Part shown: one piece after another, positions 47,109 through 52,200 of the stretch
Position numbering within the stretch: position 1 is the stretch's first letter
Layout of the letters: the number at the start of each line of letters is the position of its first letter
From: Chthonomonadales bacterium
GTDB taxonomy: Bacteria; Armatimonadota; Chthonomonadetes; Chthonomonadales; CAJBBX01
NCBI GenBank assembly: GCA_027459625.1
Contig: DAIDHP010000014.1
Coordinates: forward strand, 921 to 64,920
DNA length: 64,000 nt
Direction of reading: 5' to 3'
Program-made: the position numbers and the translations under genes
The notes under the pieces: model-generated
What the model was told of the DNA's origin: nothing
Databases searched by the model: none
The model's input: the letters and a program-made list of their open reading frames with translations, nothing else

Positions 47109-47269
47109 GATGGTGTTCCTTGCATTACATTCATGTGAAGCGGGGTTGCCTAATATTACCATACGGGGGCGCCTATCTCACGATAAGGCGGAATTATCTC
47201 TCGCGGAGGCGGATTTACCTCACGCAGAGACGCGGAGACGCTGTTTTTCTTACAATGTACGGAGGATTC

Positions 47270-47360
47270 GTAGGGGCGACCCTTGTGGTCGCCCGAAATG
47301 TTGCGAGTTCCGGAAATCTTGTGAGCGGTACGGTTTCGCCTTAACGCCCAATCCCCGCGC
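47270..47360 (+). repeat. GTAG-type REP unit, copy 1
   Basis: GTAGGGGCGACCCTTGTGGTCGCCC hairpin plus a tail repeated at 47742. Confidence 0.8.
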
Positions 47361-47700
47361 AGGTTGGCGGTCCCCCCGCGCGGTGAACCATGCGGTATGC
47401 GCTCGCGAACGCCATGAATGGCGTGACGCGTGGAATTCGATCCCGCAGGTTGGCGTTCCCCGTGCGATAAATCACGTGGTACGCGCTCGCGAACGCCATG
47501 AATGGTGTGATGCGTGGAATTCGATCCCGCAGGTTGGCGGTCCCCGCGCGATAAATCACGCGGTACGCGCTCGCAAACGCCATGAATGGCGTGGCACGGG
47601 GGTATTCGATCCTGCAGGTTGGCGTTCCCCCCCGCGCGGTGAACCACGCGGTACATGCTCGCGAACGCCATAAATGGCGTAACACGTGGAATTCGATCCC
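47359..47700 (+). repeat. Tandem array of four 84-86-bp double-hairpin repeats
   Basis: GCAGGTTGGCG starts at 47359, 47445, 47529 and 47614; each unit has CGCGCGRTRAAYCAYGYG and ACGCCATRAATGGYGT hairpins. Confidence 0.92.
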
Positions 47701-47741
47701 GAACGGGTACATGGTTTCATCGAATGTGTCGCGATGATTTT

Positions 47742-47833
47742 GTAGGGGCGACCCTTGTGGTCGCCCGAAATGTTGCGGGTTCCGGAAATCATGTGATCGA
47801 TAGCGAATCCACCATCACGCCTAACCCCTGCGC
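47742..47833 (+). repeat. GTAG-type REP unit, copy 2 (direct repeat of 47270)
   Basis: GTAGGGGCGACCCTTGTGGTCGCCCGAAATGTTGCGRGTTCCGGAAATC nearly identical to copy 1. Confidence 0.8.
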
Positions 47834-47889
47834 GACATATTATATGACCGGTGAGATGTAAATCCGTATTTCAAAACTCCCGCCGAATA

Positions 47890-48963
47890 CTAATTACATC
47901 TCGTATATTGGCATACATGCACGGCGCAAATATTCGTTAAAAATGCGCAAGGTTCCTTTGTTGCAATGTCAAACACCTCTTCATCCGTTTTTTCTAAGAT
48001 TACCCGGCAAATTCGTATAGGATGTTGGTCAATTCCACCATACGCCAAATCGCTTGTTTTTACGGAACGTGCAAATAACCATTGCTTTTCCGGATCTTTT
48101 GGAAGAATTGATTCCCTGCAATGCTTGGAAATATCGATAATAATACCGTGAAGATTCTGGAAGATATCCCTCGCAGTATAACGAAGGACCTTTAAGCCCA
48201 TGCTCTCCATCCATTTATCTCGCTTCATATCATATCTTCGACTATCCTGAGACCCATGCGCTATATCCCCATCCACTTCGATAACAAGTCCGGCGTCATG
48301 GGAATAGACATCCGCGATAAAAGGACCAATCGGGTGCTGTCTTCTGAATTTAACACCGCATTTATGTCCTAAAAGCGCTTGCCAAAGCAATCTCTCAGGT
48401 GGTGTCATCGAGTTACGTAATTCCCTTGCGTATGCGAAATGTTCAACTGGAACGCCGCTCCATCCACCATTAGGAGAGAGTTGTTGAACCCTCCTGCGCA
48501 CCAAAACTCGATGGTATTCCGTGAGCCAAAGGACGCTTTCGCTCTCTTCGGTTTGTATTCCAATCATTATCCCCCGGTAATGTCTTCGAACCACCTTTTG
48601 TATCGGAAATACGTTCCCGTCATAAGCCACGATCAATTCGTCGGGATGGAGAGATTCAATGGGTTTCCATGCAAACCAATCACCCTCCTTAAATCCCGCC
48701 TCTTCCTCACCCCCCACAAATCCCTCCGCCGCACCATCGCCCCCTTTAAATTCCCCCGCATGCGGGGGGAGACTGGGTTTTTCGTTGTCGTGGAGGGTAT
48801 TCTCCCCCGCGTGCGGGGGAGTTGGAGGGGGTAAATCCGGCGATGTATCTTGGGTGTTTGGAGGGGGTAGCACGCAAAGGACGAGAACTCCCGCCCTTAC
48901 GCAACATGAATGGATCTTTTTAGATCGAAGAAAGTTGAAGTTCGCCTTTTTCATTCGCACCAT
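47890..48963 (-). CDS. Stand-alone Hint/intein-like protein with embedded DUF559 (Vsr-like) endonuclease
   Basis: Block A CVRAGVLV, block B LWLTEYH, DUF559 (ARELR..MT..E..LW, FRRQHPIG.FIAD, IEVDG..H, RD), blocks F/G VFDIAT..FLTNICAVHV-C. Confidence 0.82.
   Translation of the reverse strand: MVRMKKANFNFLRSKKIHSCCVRAGVLVLCVLPPPNTQDTSPDLPPPTPPHAGENTLHDNEKPSLPPHAGEFKGGDGAAEGFVGGEEEAGFKEGDWFAWKPIESLHPDELIVAYDGNVFPIQKVVRRHYRGIMIGIQTEESESVLWLTEYHRVLVRRRVQQLSPNGGWSGVPVEHFAYARELRNSMTPPERLLWQALLGHKCGVKFRRQHPIGPFIADVYSHDAGLVIEVDGDIAHGSQDSRRYDMKRDKWMESMGLKVLRYTARDIFQNLHGIIIDISKHCRESILPKDPEKQWLFARSVKTSDLAYGGIDQHPIRICRVILEKTDEEVFDIATKEPCAFLTNICAVHVCQYTRCN
48740..48832. repeat. Inverted pair of GC-rich palindromes read in frame inside the Hint domain
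   Basis: CCCCCGCATGCGGGGG (48753-48768) and CTCCCCCGCGTGCGGGGGAG (48802-48821); both translate as PPHAGE. Confidence 0.8.
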
Positions 48964-49005
48964 CCCGAGTACGTGTTTGAAATCCGTCTTGAACTATATA
49001 TGCCC

Positions 49006-49200
49006 CTACCCGAAATCCATCTCCTCGTTTCGCGCCCGGGGTTTTCCAGAGCCCTCGTTGCGTTGCACCATGTATCCCAATGGGAGTTCGGGTCGTTTGC
49101 CCTCCTCCAGAATCTCCTTGATGGTGAGAAGCTGCATTCGTGGGATGCGCCGTGTGCCGAAACCCTCCACGAATCCGAGACCCTCCGCCTCATGCAATCT
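49006..49200 (-). pseudogene. C-terminal remnant of a DNA methyltransferase/Mrr-like fusion
   Basis: EAEGLGF...IPRMQLLTIKEIL.EGKRPELP resembles the EA...GF..YP.IQILT..ELL.G..P tail; begins abruptly after the GH116 terminator. Confidence 0.55.
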
Positions 49201-49216
49201 TGATCAATAATAAATG

Positions 49217-49242
49217 CAGGGGCGATGTATTTACCGCCCCTG
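49217..49242 (-). terminator. Terminator after the GH116 gene
   Basis: CAGGGGCG...CGCCCCTG hairpin with an A/T-rich tail on the minus strand. Confidence 0.65.
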
Positions 49243-49257
49243 AGCATTACACGAATG

Positions 49258-52200
49258 TTACGCGTTCCTAATCACCAGCATATCGCCGGGTTTGAGGAGG
49301 ATGGGGGATTGGAACCGCAGAAGGACGGCGTTTCCCTTCGAGGAATGATCCGCCTCCAGAACCGTGCCGTTGCGCCGAGCCACCCACTTTGCCGAAGATG
49401 ACGGCAGGCTGGTGAGGATCTCCGCTAATGGCAGGGAGCCCTCGCGCAACGTCAGGCGTACTTCGTCGCGATTTTGATTGAATATCCCCCACGACGTAGG
49501 AGTGCAGAAAACCGCCTGGTACTTCTCCGGGGTTACTCTCGGCGAGAACCCGATGCTTTTTGTTTTGGCGTTGTAGGAGAAACCCTGCGTCGCCATGTAG
49601 GTGGTCCAAACGCTCATGGGGCGGTAGTAATGGTTGCCGCATTCGAAATGGTTCCAAGGCTTGCCCCACGCTAGATATCTGTCCTGAACGTCGCGGATCA
49701 TTTGCAGCCCTTCGTCCACCATTCCGGAGTAGATCATATTGGACGCAAGGGAGTACTCCACGCCGGTCCACGTCGCGGACCACTGCCCTCCTTGCTTCGG
49801 TGCGTCGGCGGGATTCGGCCACCACCCGTTGATGATGCTGCGGTGTTGTCGGTTTTTTGTGTAGATGGTTTTCAAGTCGGAAACCACGTGGTCGTTGGGC
49901 AACGGATCGCCAAGGTCCGGGATCAGCCTGGCGTACCACATGGAGTCCATTCCCGCCGCGAGGCTGGCGTTGCTTCGTTTTCCGGTTGCGGGGTCGTAGT
50001 ATAGGTCGTAATACTCGCCGTTCCATAGCTCCTTCTCGAAGTTGGGTTGTCCCTGCTTGAACCAGCTTGTTAAAAGCGCGTGATTGGCTTCGTCTTTCAT
50101 CTCAAGTGCCATCTCGATCGCCGCTTTCACCGCCACCAAATAGAGAGAGGAGACGTAGACCGAGGTGCCATAGAACCCCCATTGATCGTAGGTTTGATCC
50201 GCACCGGTGTCGTTGGGAAGCCCGTCGCCATCGGTGTCTCTGTTGCGCATGTTGGTGAGAGCGAGCATGATGTGCGGCCAGTGCATATGCAGGAAGGCGT
50301 GGTCGCCCATCCACTTCCAATCCCTGTAAACCATGAGAACATATTGAGGCATGAGGTCTATGCGATAAAAGCTGTCGGGATGATCGAATGTGGCGGGAAA
50401 GAAGTGGGGGACATGCCCGCTTTTCTTTTGAAAATCCATGATGAGATCAATTTGACTTCTCTCTAAATCGGGATAGAGAAGCGCTATCACATGGGAGCCG
50501 TAGTACCCCACATCGGTCGTGTCCAGTCCGCAGCACCCTTCGCCTTCCCACACACTGAATTTGTCCTCCTTGGTCCACCATGTCTCTTTTGTGAAGGTGG
50601 TCAATTGGGCGTTGATGGCGTCAAGCACCTTGCGCTCAAGAGTGGATTCGTAGAAATCCGTATGAAACCGCTCCGTTTTCTCATGAAGCGACTGCAGGTT
50701 TTTCGTGACGTAATTCGCCACCTGATTGGCGCTGGAGAACCAGTTGGAGTACATGTGACCGATCCTCGTGTGATCCGCATCGTAGTGGTTTGGGTAGTAC
50801 CAGGTAAGAATGAACGTAGCCTCCCGCGATTCCCCTGCGGGAATGGCGAGCTTCTGGGTCATGGCGGTATTACGCCCGGATTCACCTGTGAGCGCACCGG
50901 TCGCCTCCACGGCGCCGTCCTCGGCGAAATCCGCCAACAACTCGTCGAATTGATTCCATTCCGCGCGCACGGAGCCCGCCCCCAAGCCGCTCAAGGTCAT
51001 TTCGCCATTGGTTCCCCATTGCGCCGGAATTCCGTCCCCCGTTTTGTATGTGGTGTGCGCCGCATAGGAGATCAAGTGAGCGTAGATATCCGAAATAAGA
51101 TCCGAAGAGGCGGGCCACCCTCCCCATATCGCGGTGGCGTAGACCAGAGTTCTGCCCGAGCCGTACTTGCCCGCTACGATCAAGGGTTGTCCGCCGTCCC
51201 CCTTGGCGATCACGACGCCATCCGGTTTGACGGATGCGATGGTGTTGTATCCGCTGTATTGGGGGAGGCTCATTTTGCCGAAGATCGCAGTCGCCTCGGG
51301 ATTATTGACCTTCGTCATTTGAACGTTAACGTTGTTGGCGTCGAATTGGTTTTCAAACGTGATCGGAAGAATGCTTTCCAAAACGGTTCCGTTCATGTGA
51401 CCCCATCGGTCATCCGAAATCCCGTAGAATGCATCCCATCCTCCGGAGTAGATAAACCCCATGCCGCTGTTAACTGCGTCCTTGAGGATGATCATGTTCG
51501 CATCACCGAGGGTTGAACTTGCATGAGCGGTCTCGCCCATCCAAGCGCAATCGAACTTTTGAGCCAGTTCCGCGCCGGTTCGAGCGGGCAGATGGATGCC
51601 GTTGGGACCTTCGCCGGTCGCCCAGGTGATTTTGATGTTTTTGATACCGCTTAGCGTTTGTTGAAATTCCGGATGCTGCTGGTCGGAGATCATCAGCAGG
51701 CGTACCGGTTTTGCGAAGGCGGAGAGCGATCCGCCGGTTTTCGCATCCATAAGAACCCGCAACCCTTTTTCCACATCGATTTTTCGGTTTCTCGATCCCA
51801 GGGATCCGATGTCAAAGCCCGTGCCGTTCCTCATGCTGGAGAGCAAGGAGACCTCCATGGGTTTGTCCGTCGGATTGTGCACGGTGAAGGAGAATATGCA
51901 CGCGGGGATCCCGGAGTTCTTGGAGTCGTGGGGGATGAAAGGCGTCCATGCTTTCATATCCACCTTCGCGGGGATATTGGCGTCCATGAACTTCATCATT
52001 GCGAACGGATGCTCGCCGACATAGTCAATCGTAGTCACTCCAGGAACATAGCCTCTCCCATTCAACTGCAGCAAATGAACGGCGGATTTGGCATCCTGTT
52101 GTGCTCTGACTGCGAAGAAGGCGTCATCGAACGCCATTTGGCTCGCCCAGTTATTGAAAATCTGCCAGTCGTGAAAGTTACCGTCCGCGCGAATCTCCAC

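What the first reader, a model, noticed from the sequence alone, without database searches (positions are those of the whole stretch)
47890..48963. Host-less intein-like protein carrying a DUF559 nuclease
Seen: residues 21-350 (48903-47914) have intein blocks A, B, F and G around a DUF559 domain with its conserved motifs. The flanks are only 20 aa and 7 aa, and the terminal His-Asn is His-Val before Cys, so canonical splicing should be blocked while Cys1 and TxxH remain. From recall, similar DUF559 inteins sit in the DPF/DFF-C-GSGT motif of DNA methyltransferases. A DPFM reads in another frame just before Cys1 (weak evidence), and no GSGT follows. The 357-codon frame is uninterrupted. Inference: either a stranded intein from a decayed R-M gene, or a free-standing, N-terminally self-cleaving nuclease element. 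This is the best candidate here for an undescribed system.
Basis: partly seen in the sequence, partly recalled or inferred. Interest (0 to 1): 0.72.

Follow-up and report, generated by a model that had tools for sequence, protein, structure and literature searches.

The report
Stranded intein relic with DUF559 nuclease
This open reading frame is the leftover of a self-splicing protein insert (an intein with a DNA-cutting domain) whose host DNA-methylase gene has been lost, and related strains show it is drifting and breaking rather than working as a new system.

Summary
ORF 47890-48963 (-), 357 aa, has a Hint (intein) fold split by a DUF559/Vsr-like nuclease domain. It keeps Cys1 and TxxH, ends His-Val-Cys instead of His-Asn-Cys, and has no methyltransferase exteins around it.

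About 37 relatives carry the same intein in frame at ...D-P/F-T/F | CGSGTT of N6/N4 DNA methyltransferases (PF01555).

Here the host gene is gone. The C-terminal splicing residues have decayed (block F His to Cys, Asn to Val). The same-genus genome lacks the ORF.

Contigs from four metagenome runs (two studies) carry 1-nt indels inside the ORF at 48470, 48676 and 48916. The main variant haplotype differs from the window by 17 nonsynonymous and 4 synonymous changes. The neighbouring GH116 gene shows 1 and 9 over the same haplotype.

The genome also holds a second broken DUF559 intein, an IS-cut methylase and, just upstream of the ORF, the 188-nt tail of yet another methylase.

Best reading (about 0.78): a stranded intein relic drifting neutrally, of which the window holds a still-open allele. 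A free-standing or self-cleaving nuclease is not supported but not excluded for this allele.

An intein pseudogene with tiny exteins is already in print (Arth_1007). In-frame DUF559 inteins in methylases are barely described. The scan's earlier notes found no look-alike of this sequence.

The parts
47890..48963 (-). 357-codon open frame: an intein-like (Hint) protein with an inserted DUF559 nuclease domain and no exteins
48901..48906 (-). Cys20-Cys21 codons (TGT TGC). Cys21 aligns with Cys1 of block A (CVRAG, against the family's CVRKGT).
48908..48916 (-). GAT CCA TTC (D-P-F), read one base out of frame with the ORF, followed by one extra A at 48907. Likely the last trace of the N-extein motif I. 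Weak evidence.
   Evidence: inference
48679..48870 (-). Variable, low-complexity insert after block A, encoded by GC-rich palindromes (arms 48741-48768 and 48804-48831). Predicted disordered.
48448..48675 (-). N-terminal half of the Hint fold, including block B T148-E-Y-H151 (48511-48522)
48118..48435 (-). DUF559 / Vsr-like (EDxHD-type) nuclease domain, residues 177-282. D218, E229, D231, H236 and D245 are all retained.
47914..48096 (-). C-terminal half of the Hint fold with decayed block F (DIATKEPCA, against the family's DLEVE..HS) and block G (His349-Val350)
47911..47919 (-). His349-Val350-Cys351, where relatives have His-Asn|Cys
49007..49194 (-). 188-nt relic of the 3' end of a different, intein-less methyltransferase type. 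It is 84.6% identical in DNA to G000:C1:62422-62609.
49217..49242 (-). Terminator-like hairpin directly after the GH116 gene and upstream of the relics (pattern match only)
47267..47802 (.). Downstream border of the island: two 64-nt REP-bearing units bracketing four 84-nt tandem repeats

Best explanation
The ORF is a stranded relic of a homing intein.

Its ancestor sat in frame in motif I (DPx|CGSGTT, the SAM-binding loop) of an N6/N4 DNA methyltransferase. It carried a DUF559/Vsr-like nuclease as its homing endonuclease. That role is inferred by analogy with the EDxHD enzyme I-Bth0305I.

The methyltransferase was then lost by deletion, and only the intein reading frame remains, in a variable island between two glycosidase-type genes. 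With nothing left to splice, the C-terminal splicing residues decayed and the frame now drifts.

The window holds a still-open allele, while sister alleles in related strains are frameshifted. Cys1, TxxH and the nuclease catalytic residues are still present in this allele. So residual N-terminal cleavage or nuclease activity is chemically possible, but nothing indicates that it is selected for.

Shown: the anatomy, the homology, the absence of exteins, the decay of blocks F and G, the frameshift alleles, and the neutral substitution pattern.

Inferred: the former host gene, the homing role of the nuclease, and the lack of present function.
For: 1. Family. Thirty-seven relatives of 631-1445 aa carry the same element, and 34 of them have PF01555. 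All 37 end ...VHN|CGSG. Thirty-four show GDLV.D..|CVRKGT at the N-junction.

2. No exteins here. tblastn with those 37 proteins hits the window only at 47911-48915. Nothing else scores better than E 0.01.

3. Decay is concentrated in the splicing part.
- I took the 65 columns conserved in at least 18 of 19 non-redundant hosted inteins. The ORF differs at 6 of 15 in Hint-C, 3 of 15 in Hint-N, 1 of 6 in block A and 3 of 29 in DUF559.
- Hosted sequences, tested leave-one-out, differ at 0-9 columns in total.
- Hint-C against DUF559 gives Fisher p 0.044.
- Domain scores relative to the hosted mean are 0.67 for Hint-N, 0.84 for DUF559 and 0.49 for Hint-C.

4. Population.
- A 1-nt deletion at 48470 occurs in X2, X3 and X4.
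- A 1-nt deletion at 48676 occurs in X1 and X3.
- A 1-nt insertion at 48916 occurs in X2.
- So all 4 of 4 laid runs, from 2 studies, carry at least one indel inside the ORF.

5. Substitutions.
- Of the listed differences in the ORF, 17 are nonsynonymous and 4 synonymous, giving pN/pS 1.2. This fits the neutral share of 0.78 (binomial p 1.0).
- The differences include Q209L and R183H. Q209 is invariant in the 38-row alignment and R183 is at least 90% conserved.
- GH116 next door has 1 nonsynonymous and 9 synonymous differences on the same haplotype (1 and 10 over all runs). Fisher p is 3e-4.

6. The same-genus genome G001 lacks the ORF. Its sequence diverges directly after the GH116 stop codon.

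7. The same genome holds other wrecks.
- A second DUF559 intein on C62 has an internal stop and a truncated C-extein.
- A methylase N-part on C21 is cut by an ISL3-type transposase gene.
- The 188-nt methylase tail lies at 49007-49194.

8. Decayed copies recur in the phylum.
- G012 has Cys1 changed to Tyr and the nuclease deleted.
- G054 has lost TxxH and block G.

9. No sigma-70-like promoter was found in 47700-49400, and a terminator-like hairpin follows GH116. This is weak evidence.
Against: - The frame is open for 357 codons, and all 18 columns invariant in the 38-row alignment are kept, including the nuclease catalytic residues.
- At the polarisable conserved sites (Q209, R183) the derived state is in the variant haplotype. 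Much of the neutral signal may therefore have accrued after that haplotype was frameshifted, and it does not prove that the window's allele is unconstrained.
- The contigs laid have low depth (2-7), and the tool warns that single low-depth differences can be errors. However, 48470 is seen in three runs and 48676 in two.
- Five host-less relatives from Calditrichota form a clade with 100% support. They are open although 45% diverged from each other. One sits between housekeeping genes with no methylase nearby. This could mean that host-less copies can persist.
- The methylase tail lies 5' of the intein and belongs to another methylase type. The history of the locus is therefore not a simple in-place decay of one gene.
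Confidence: 0.78

Rival explanations
1. A functional free-standing nuclease gene derived from an intein. It would be selfish or domesticated, as HO endonuclease derives from an intein-like element. The Hint fold serves only as scaffold or DNA-binding module, the DUF559 domain cuts DNA, and splicing is no longer needed.
For: - The frame is open, and nuclease residues D218, E229, D231, H236 and D245 are intact.
- The DUF559 domain scores 0.84 of the hosted mean while Hint-C scores 0.49.
- Host-less relatives in Calditrichota form a supported clade. One lies between an hbd-like gene and ackA with no methylase nearby.
- Precedent: HO endonuclease (PMC7282813; I saw only the start of its abstract in a search listing).
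Against: - Frameshift alleles are present in all 4 laid runs, and pN/pS is 1.2 against the neighbouring gene's 1 nonsynonymous to 9 synonymous.
- The variant haplotype has changed the invariant Q209 inside the nuclease.
- The ORF is absent from the same-genus genome.
- No promoter-like site was found.
- Host-less relatives also show broken alleles: the L132 frameshift, and a 203-aa 'Hint domain' fragment in the P0002 cluster.
- The flanks of the host-less relatives are not alike, which fits independent strandings.
Confidence: 0.13
2. An N-terminally self-cleaving element. Cys1 and TxxH perform the N-S acyl shift and release the 20-residue leader, as in some bacterial intein-like (BIL) domains. 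This would activate or mature the nuclease.
For: - Cys20/Cys21 and T148-x-x-H151 are retained while Asn is lost.
- The best Foldseek match is a BIL2 domain (6y75, E 1.4e-5, TM 0.61 on the target).
Against: - The sequence relatives are true methylase inteins, not BIL proteins.
- The 20-residue leader has no recognisable function or conservation.
- The X2 allele shifts the frame between the start codon and Cys1.
- The Calditrichota allele L132 also separates block A from the rest by a frameshift.
- The same population evidence for drift applies as above.
Confidence: 0.04
3. The uninterrupted frame is not a real allele but a consensus or chimera of the assembly. Every real haplotype would then be frameshifted, so the locus is already a plain pseudogene.
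For: - No laid contig spans the ORF without an indel.
- The closest run, X1 (0.76 of the sampled words), differs by a 1-nt gap at 48676.
Against: - X1 pieces 1, 2 and 4 agree with the window.
- The piece carrying the gap has a depth of only 3.57.
- The four runs need not include the sample from which the genome was assembled.
Confidence: 0.1

Closest known systems
Arsp-FB24 Arth_1007 intein pseudogene (Tori and Perler 2011, PMC3196547; abstract and outline read)
   Same: An intein-only open reading frame with very short flanks. Its exteins total 66 aa, against 27 aa here. Catalytic splicing residues are missing, and it is interpreted as an inactive relic.
   Different: That one is a class 3 mini-intein without a nuclease domain, and it was shown inactive at the bench. 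This one is class-1-like, carries an apparently intact DUF559 nuclease, and is judged from sequence and population data only.
DUF559-bearing inteins inside N6/N4 DNA methyltransferases (P0056-P0092; PF01555 with PF04480). One passing mention in print for Thermosynechococcus (PMC9403480, section 17 read).
   Same: The same intein family, at 36-44% identity over 61-95% of the ORF. It shares the order block A, palindrome-coded insert, Hint-N, DUF559, Hint-C.
   Different: Those sit in frame between GDLV.D.. and CGSGTT and keep His-Asn and the block F His. This one has no exteins, has His-Val, and has Cys in place of the block F His.
EDxHD / Vsr-like homing endonucleases (Dassa 2009, PMC2677866; I-Bth0305I, Taylor 2011, PMC3239194; passages read)
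   Same: The inserted domain has the same fold (3r3p, TM 0.70-0.78 on the target). It also has the E..D..H..D catalytic pattern and is associated with inteins.
   Different: Those are free-standing genes between split-intein halves or inside group I introns, and they have their own N-terminal DNA-binding region. Here the domain is fused in frame inside a contiguous Hint fold.
HO endonuclease and WHO elements of yeasts (PMC7282813; only the start of its abstract seen, in a search listing)
   Same: An intein-derived protein that stands alone without exteins. This is the model for the rival reading.
   Different: HO is conserved, expressed and functional, and has a LAGLIDADG nuclease. The present ORF shows drift and frameshift alleles.
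Bacterial intein-like (BIL) domains
   Same: A Hint fold that may cleave at one end without splicing. A BIL2 domain is the top structural match.
   Different: The sequence kinship here is with true methylase inteins. BIL domains, as I recall, lack nuclease inserts and sit inside larger variable proteins.

Membership tests
Intein (Hint domain, class-1-like) | Hint fold | tested here: met
   The model has pLDDT 81. Foldseek matches BIL2, Prp8, gp41-1, DnaB and RadA inteins at TM 0.54-0.71 on the target. A profile search of PDB sequences hits MJ0781 (2jmz, E 4.7e-8) and the RecA mini-intein (E 1.8e-6).
Intein (Hint domain, class-1-like) | Block A nucleophile (Cys/Ser1) and block B TxxH | tested here: met
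   C21 aligns with Cys1 of CVRKGT. T148 and H151 fall in nearly invariant columns.
Intein (Hint domain, class-1-like) | Block F Asp/His and block G His-Asn, followed by a +1 Cys/Ser/Thr | tested here: not met
   D332, H349 and C351 are kept. The block F His is Cys339 and the terminal Asn is Val350. E334, V335, E336 and S340 are also changed.
Intein (Hint domain, class-1-like) | In-frame insertion in a host protein (exteins on both sides) | tested here: not met
   The flanks are 20 and 7 aa. tblastn of 37 host methylases finds no extein in the window. No GSGTT follows.
Intein (Hint domain, class-1-like) | Protein splicing activity | not testable with these tools
   Needs expression and analysis of the products.
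DUF559 (PF04480) / Vsr-like EDxHD nuclease | Profile match above the curated cut-off | tested here: met
   83.8 bits against 20.6, residues 177-282. The family alignment A2, which includes the ORF, hits 3hrl with E 1.7e-27 in the PDB sequence search.
DUF559 (PF04480) / Vsr-like EDxHD nuclease | Catalytic acidic and His residues (E..D..H..D, plus the upstream Asp) | tested here: met
   D218, E229, D231, H236 and D245 are invariant in 38 of 38 aligned rows, including the ORF. Their catalytic role is taken from the Vsr and I-Bth0305I literature, not tested.
DUF559 (PF04480) / Vsr-like EDxHD nuclease | Vsr-like fold | tested here: met
   3hrl TM 0.84, 3r3p TM 0.70-0.78, and Vsr 1cw0/1vsr TM 0.43-0.44 on the target.
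DUF559 (PF04480) / Vsr-like EDxHD nuclease | Nuclease activity and a target site | not testable with these tools
   Needs a bench assay.
Pseudogene / decaying relic | Disrupted frame | tested here: inconclusive
   The window's allele is open. Alleles in all 4 of 4 laid runs carry 1-nt indels.
Pseudogene / decaying relic | Neutral substitution pattern | tested here: met
   17 nonsynonymous to 4 synonymous, pN/pS 1.2. The neighbouring gene has 1 to 9. Fisher p 3e-4. Part of the signal may postdate the frameshift in the variant.
Bacterial intein-like (BIL) domain | Closest sequence relatives are BIL proteins, with no nuclease insert | tested here: not met
   The closest relatives are methylase inteins with DUF559. 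Only the fold resembles BIL2.

The most novel reading that the evidence does not exclude
Host-less DUF559-Hint genes are not just wrecks. They are a recurrent second life of this intein family.

After the methylase is lost, or after the element lands outside it, the intein persists for a time as a free-standing, possibly mobile nuclease gene. The palindrome-coded insert would act as a DNA or RNA hairpin control element.

The window's open allele and the Calditrichota clade, which sits between housekeeping genes, would be active examples. The frameshifted alleles would be its normal turnover.
Probability: 0.12. Interest if true: 0.7.

Novelty: new member of a known kind. Interest (0 to 1): 0.3.

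Why it matters
For this locus the result is mainly a clean-up. An attractive 'orphan intein nuclease' turns out to be the drifting remnant of a lost methylase gene, so it should not be pursued as a new defence or self-cleaving system.

Two wider points remain.

1. The parent family is widespread but barely described.
- It consists of contiguous inteins with an in-frame DUF559/Vsr-like nuclease, inserted at the SAM-binding motif of N6/N4 DNA methyltransferases.
- I saw it in Armatimonadota, Nitrospirota and Calditrichota, and in proteins or records labelled as cyanobacteria, Chloroflexota and Leptospiraceae (Spirochaetota).
- In the papers searched it appears only as a passing mention.
- A 2025 preprint states that Vsr-like nucleases in inteins were known only from split inteins, and adds antisense cases.

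2. The locus gives a snapshot of the end of the intein life cycle. The host gene is lost first, the splicing residues decay next, and the nuclease domain and the open frame go last.

Tried and rejected
- **RNA evidence.** No RNA holder was listed for the ORF, so expression is untested.
- **Orthologue dN/dS.** The same-genus genome G001 has no copy. Its contigs end on both sides of the island, at C175 331 nt after GH116 and at C233 inside the 548-aa gene. The 667-aa gene was not found there. No orthologue comparison or empty-site comparison was therefore possible.
- **Contexts of host-less relatives.**
  - A genome-contig scan with P0008 returned only plain DUF559 loci.
  - A scan with P0002 returned nothing.
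  - The metagenome scan with P0006 gave two loci.
- **Hint-N alignment A3.** I used it in the genome search instead.
- **First genome-contig scan with A2.** It keyed on the DUF559 core. Mostly plain DUF559 genes came back, and only about a dozen of the 80 loci cover the Hint parts.
- **The methylase tail as the intein's own C-extein: rejected.**
  - It lies 5' of the intein.
  - The 37 host methylases do not match it.
  - It was not found in five genomes that carry this intein type, four of them hosted and one (G012) decayed.
  - It is instead a paralogue of the tail of the intein-less C1 methylase.
- **'ANEKGEL...DPF' upstream in the shifted frame as an N-extein remnant (SNEGDL..D.F).** The DNA alignment with hosted junctions was uninformative. 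Only 'DPF' is kept, as weak evidence.
- **Terminal branch length.** It is 1.01 against a median of 0.19. I do not use it as proof of relaxed constraint, because isolated hosted rows reach 0.7-1.2.
- **Residue-to-column mapping.** It was wrong because the --keeplength option dropped residues. It was not used. Polarity of changes rests on the invariant columns.
- **Domain-wise differences among host-less Calditrichota proteins.** They gave no clear signal of nuclease-only constraint.
Full report
**What is there**

The minus strand of 47890-48963 holds an uninterrupted 357-codon frame.

- Pfam finds DUF559 at residues 177-282 (E 9.8e-24, 83.8 bits, cut-off 20.6).
- Standard intein models almost miss the rest. 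TIGR01445 gives E 0.15, below its cut-off.
- Homology searches make the anatomy plain.
  - Among proteins of 196-625 aa, 55 match at E of 1e-3 or better.
  - Among proteins of 626-2000 aa, 419 match.
  - The best 37 long ones (P0056-P0092, E 1e-84 to 3e-43) contain the whole element inside N6/N4 DNA methyltransferases. Thirty-four of the 37 have PF01555.
- All 37 end ...VC.VHN|CGSG (36 of them CGSGTT). Thirty-four show the N-junction GDLV[LFA]D[PFC][TF]|CVR[KRA]GT. The other three are N-truncated.
- The ORF aligns end to end with it:
  - block A is C21-VRAG;
  - a low-complexity insert follows;
  - Hint-N carries T148-x-x-H151;
  - then comes the DUF559 domain;
  - Hint-C ends H349-V350, followed by C351.
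- An AlphaFold model built on a 38-row alignment has mean pLDDT 81 and pTM 0.76. Residues 1-15, 53-90 and 353-357 are disordered.
- Foldseek matches the split Hint fold to BIL2, Prp8, gp41-1 and DnaB inteins (TM 0.54-0.71 on the target). It matches the inserted domain to DUF559 3hrl (TM 0.84), I-Bth0305I (TM 0.70-0.78) and Vsr.

**No host gene**

- tblastn with the 37 host methylases hits the window only at 47911-48915. No other hit is better than E 0.01.
- The seven residues after Val350 (CQYTRCN) and the other two frames show no GSGTT.
- Directly 5' of the two Cys codons the sequence reads GAT CCA TTC A TGT TGC. D-P-F therefore stands one base out of frame, with a TAA two codons further up. 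I take this as a weak trace of the N-extein.
- About 40 nt upstream of the ORF's start codon lies a 188-nt stretch (49007-49194). It is 84.6% identical to the 3' end of an intact, intein-less 541-aa methylase elsewhere in the genome (C1:60985-62607, motif DPFCGCGT).
- That tail is not the intein's own C-extein:
  - it lies on the wrong side;
  - none of the 37 host methylases matches it;
  - it was not found in five genomes that carry this intein type.
- The island therefore holds debris of two different methylase genes.

**Decay of the splicing part**

- At 65 alignment columns conserved in at least 18 of 19 non-redundant hosted inteins, the ORF differs at 13.
  - These are 1 of 6 in block A, 3 of 15 in Hint-N, 3 of 29 in DUF559 and 6 of 15 in Hint-C.
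  - The Hint-C changes are block F V, E, H, S to T, K, C, A, block G Asn to Val, and one Gly to Ser.
  - Hosted sequences, tested leave-one-out, differ at 0-9 columns.
- Hint-C against DUF559 gives Fisher p 0.044. All Hint parts together against DUF559 give p 0.12.
- Profile scores relative to the hosted mean are 0.67 (Hint-N), 0.84 (DUF559) and 0.49 (Hint-C). A distant but hosted member, P0007, has 0.74, 0.86 and 0.74.
- The nuclease residues D218, E229, D231, H236 and D245 are kept.
- C-terminal splicing chemistry is thus gone, while the N-terminal residues and the nuclease look intact in this allele.

**Population evidence**

No RNA run is listed. Six DNA runs from two studies (mine drainage and mine tailings) hold part of the ORF. 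I laid the contigs of four of them on 47850-50800.

- All four carry 1-nt indels inside the ORF.
  - A deletion at 48470 (codon 165) occurs in X2, X3 and X4.
  - A deletion at 48676 (codon 96) occurs in X1 and X3.
  - An inserted base at 48916 (codon 16) occurs in X2.
- Each indel breaks the frame upstream of the nuclease domain.
- The 21 listed substitutions in the ORF, all present in the X2 haplotype, are 17 nonsynonymous and 4 synonymous. This gives pN/pS 1.2, in line with the neutral share of 0.78. They include Q209L and R183H at invariant or nearly invariant family columns.
- On the same haplotype the adjacent GH116 gene has 1 nonsynonymous and 9 synonymous changes (Fisher p 3e-4). Over all runs the figures are 1 and 10.

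Limits:
- The contigs have low depth (2-7).
- One X2 difference is not listed.
- At the polarisable sites the derived state is in the variant. Part of the neutral signal may therefore postdate its frameshift.
- No contig shows the window's open frame over its full length.

**Comparative context**

- The genome belongs to Armatimonadota. A same-phylum locus is identical to a record with that title.
- The same-genus genome lacks the ORF.
  - Its GH116 orthologue is 93% identical.
  - The sequence diverges right after the stop codon, and the contig ends 331 nt later.
  - The 667-aa gene downstream of the island was not found there.
- Within the same genome:
  - a second DUF559 intein on C62 has an internal stop and ends VHNCGSTLLIP;
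  - a P0058-like methylase N-part on C21 is cut by an ISL3-type transposase gene.
- A scan of 401 genomes of the phylum with the Hint-N alignment found matches in 27.
  - The strong, full-length matches are hosted copies: G256, G161, G103, G027, G024, G182 and G067.
  - Two are decayed. G012 has Cys1 changed to Tyr and the nuclease deleted. G054 has lost TxxH and block G but remains open for 449 aa.
- In a tree of 58 rows the ORF has a long end branch (1.01 against a median of 0.19).
  - It sits in an 11-row clade (SH-aLRT 95) with hosted P0057, P0001, P0058/G024 and P0007.
  - The clade also holds a fully supported group of five host-less proteins from Calditrichota.
  - One of these lies between an hbd-like gene and ackA with no methylase in sight.
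  - One of its alleles is frameshifted in the palindromic insert.
  - A 203-aa 'Hint domain' fragment in the Caldithrix cluster shows breakage there too.
  - The flanks of the host-less forms are not alike. This fits independent strandings, but I could not fetch most contexts.

**Interpretation**

The best-supported reading is a stranded intein relic. The methylase host was lost in a genome that is visibly shedding methylase genes. The intein frame survived the deletion, the splicing residues decayed, and the frame is now drifting and breaking in the population.

Shown:
- the anatomy;
- the kinship;
- the missing exteins;
- the block F and G decay;
- the frameshift alleles;
- the neutral substitution pattern.

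Inferred:
- the identity of the former host;
- the homing role of the nuclease, by analogy with the EDxHD enzyme I-Bth0305I;
- the present lack of function.

The rival, a functional free-standing nuclease, keeps some probability. The window's allele has every invariant residue, and host-less copies recur elsewhere.

**Comparison with what is known**

- An intein pseudogene with only 66 aa of exteins and missing catalytic residues has been characterised (Arth_1007, PMC3196547, abstract read).
- Vsr-like homing endonucleases are known as free-standing genes in split-intein loci and in group I introns (PMC2677866 and PMC3239194, passages read).
- A 2025 preprint (10.1101/2025.01.02.630785, passages read) states that this was the only intein-associated report. 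It adds antisense cases in phages.
- Literature searches:
  - 'intein' with 'DUF559' gave 1 paper, with a one-sentence mention;
  - 'intein', 'Vsr' and 'homing endonuclease' gave 18 papers;
  - 'intein', 'DNA methyltransferase' and 'EDxHD' (at least 2 of the 3 terms) gave 194 papers, of which 12 were listed.
  - I saw no description of contiguous in-frame DUF559 inteins in bacterial methylases in the titles and abstracts listed or in the passages read. Databases do label such proteins automatically, for example with the UniRef name 'Intein C-terminal splicing region/intein N-terminal splicing region'.
- Earlier notes of this scan describe Vsr/DUF559 nucleases in other frames or on the antisense strand of phage inteins. 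A sequence look-up found no earlier look-alike of this ORF.

**Verdict**

The locus is a new member of a known kind, a degenerate host-less intein. Interest is low to moderate, mainly for the under-described parent family and as a snapshot of intein death.

Noticed in passing
window 48679-48870 (arms 48741-48768 and 48804-48831); also L094, L095, L098, L101, L132: Every family member carries a variable number of GC-rich palindromic units after block A, translated as PPHAGG, LPACGEGWGGG or PASGGIKGG. In two hosted loci such units also sit inside Hint-C. In the window this stretch folds at -50.9 kcal/mol (z -5.5), is predicted disordered as protein, and its motif occurs nowhere else in the genome. 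A copy-number change frameshifts one allele (L132). Dassa 2009 reports hairpins 5' of Vsr-like endonuclease genes, so a common origin is possible.
   Followed up: partly
window 47267-47802: Two 64-nt units with a REP-like palindrome (92% alike) bracket four 84-nt tandem repeats. The palindrome core occurs 32 times across the genome's contigs.
   Followed up: partly
proteins P0029-P0041, P0096-P0099, P0102-P0175: Proteins carrying a DUF559 match also carry Pfam families of housekeeping enzymes. These are leucyl-tRNA synthetase (some records named Capnocytophaga), DnaE-type polymerase families, a helicase and NPD/ThiE-like enzymes. This suggests in-frame nuclease inserts or inteins in those genes.
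   Followed up: no
G000:C1:60000-62607 and G001:C51 (L012): A SIR2-like gene is followed by an intein-less 541-aa methylase with an Mrr-like C-terminal part. The pair is conserved between the two genomes of the genus and is a possible defence pair.
   Followed up: no
G000:C21:21671-23839: The N-part of a methylase, 73% identical to the intein-bearing P0058, carries an internal stop and is cut off by an ISL3-type transposase gene.
   Followed up: partly
G000:C62:19145-20161: A second, more distant DUF559 intein (29% identical to the ORF) lies at a contig end. It has an internal stop and a C-extein truncated to CGSTLLIP.
   Followed up: partly
window 48046-49489 against 49552-50800: The X2 haplotype differs from the window by 2-3% from the ORF through the last 230 nt of GH116, but by only 0.24% in the rest of GH116. 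This suggests a recombination boundary or an old polymorphism at the island's edge.
   Followed up: no
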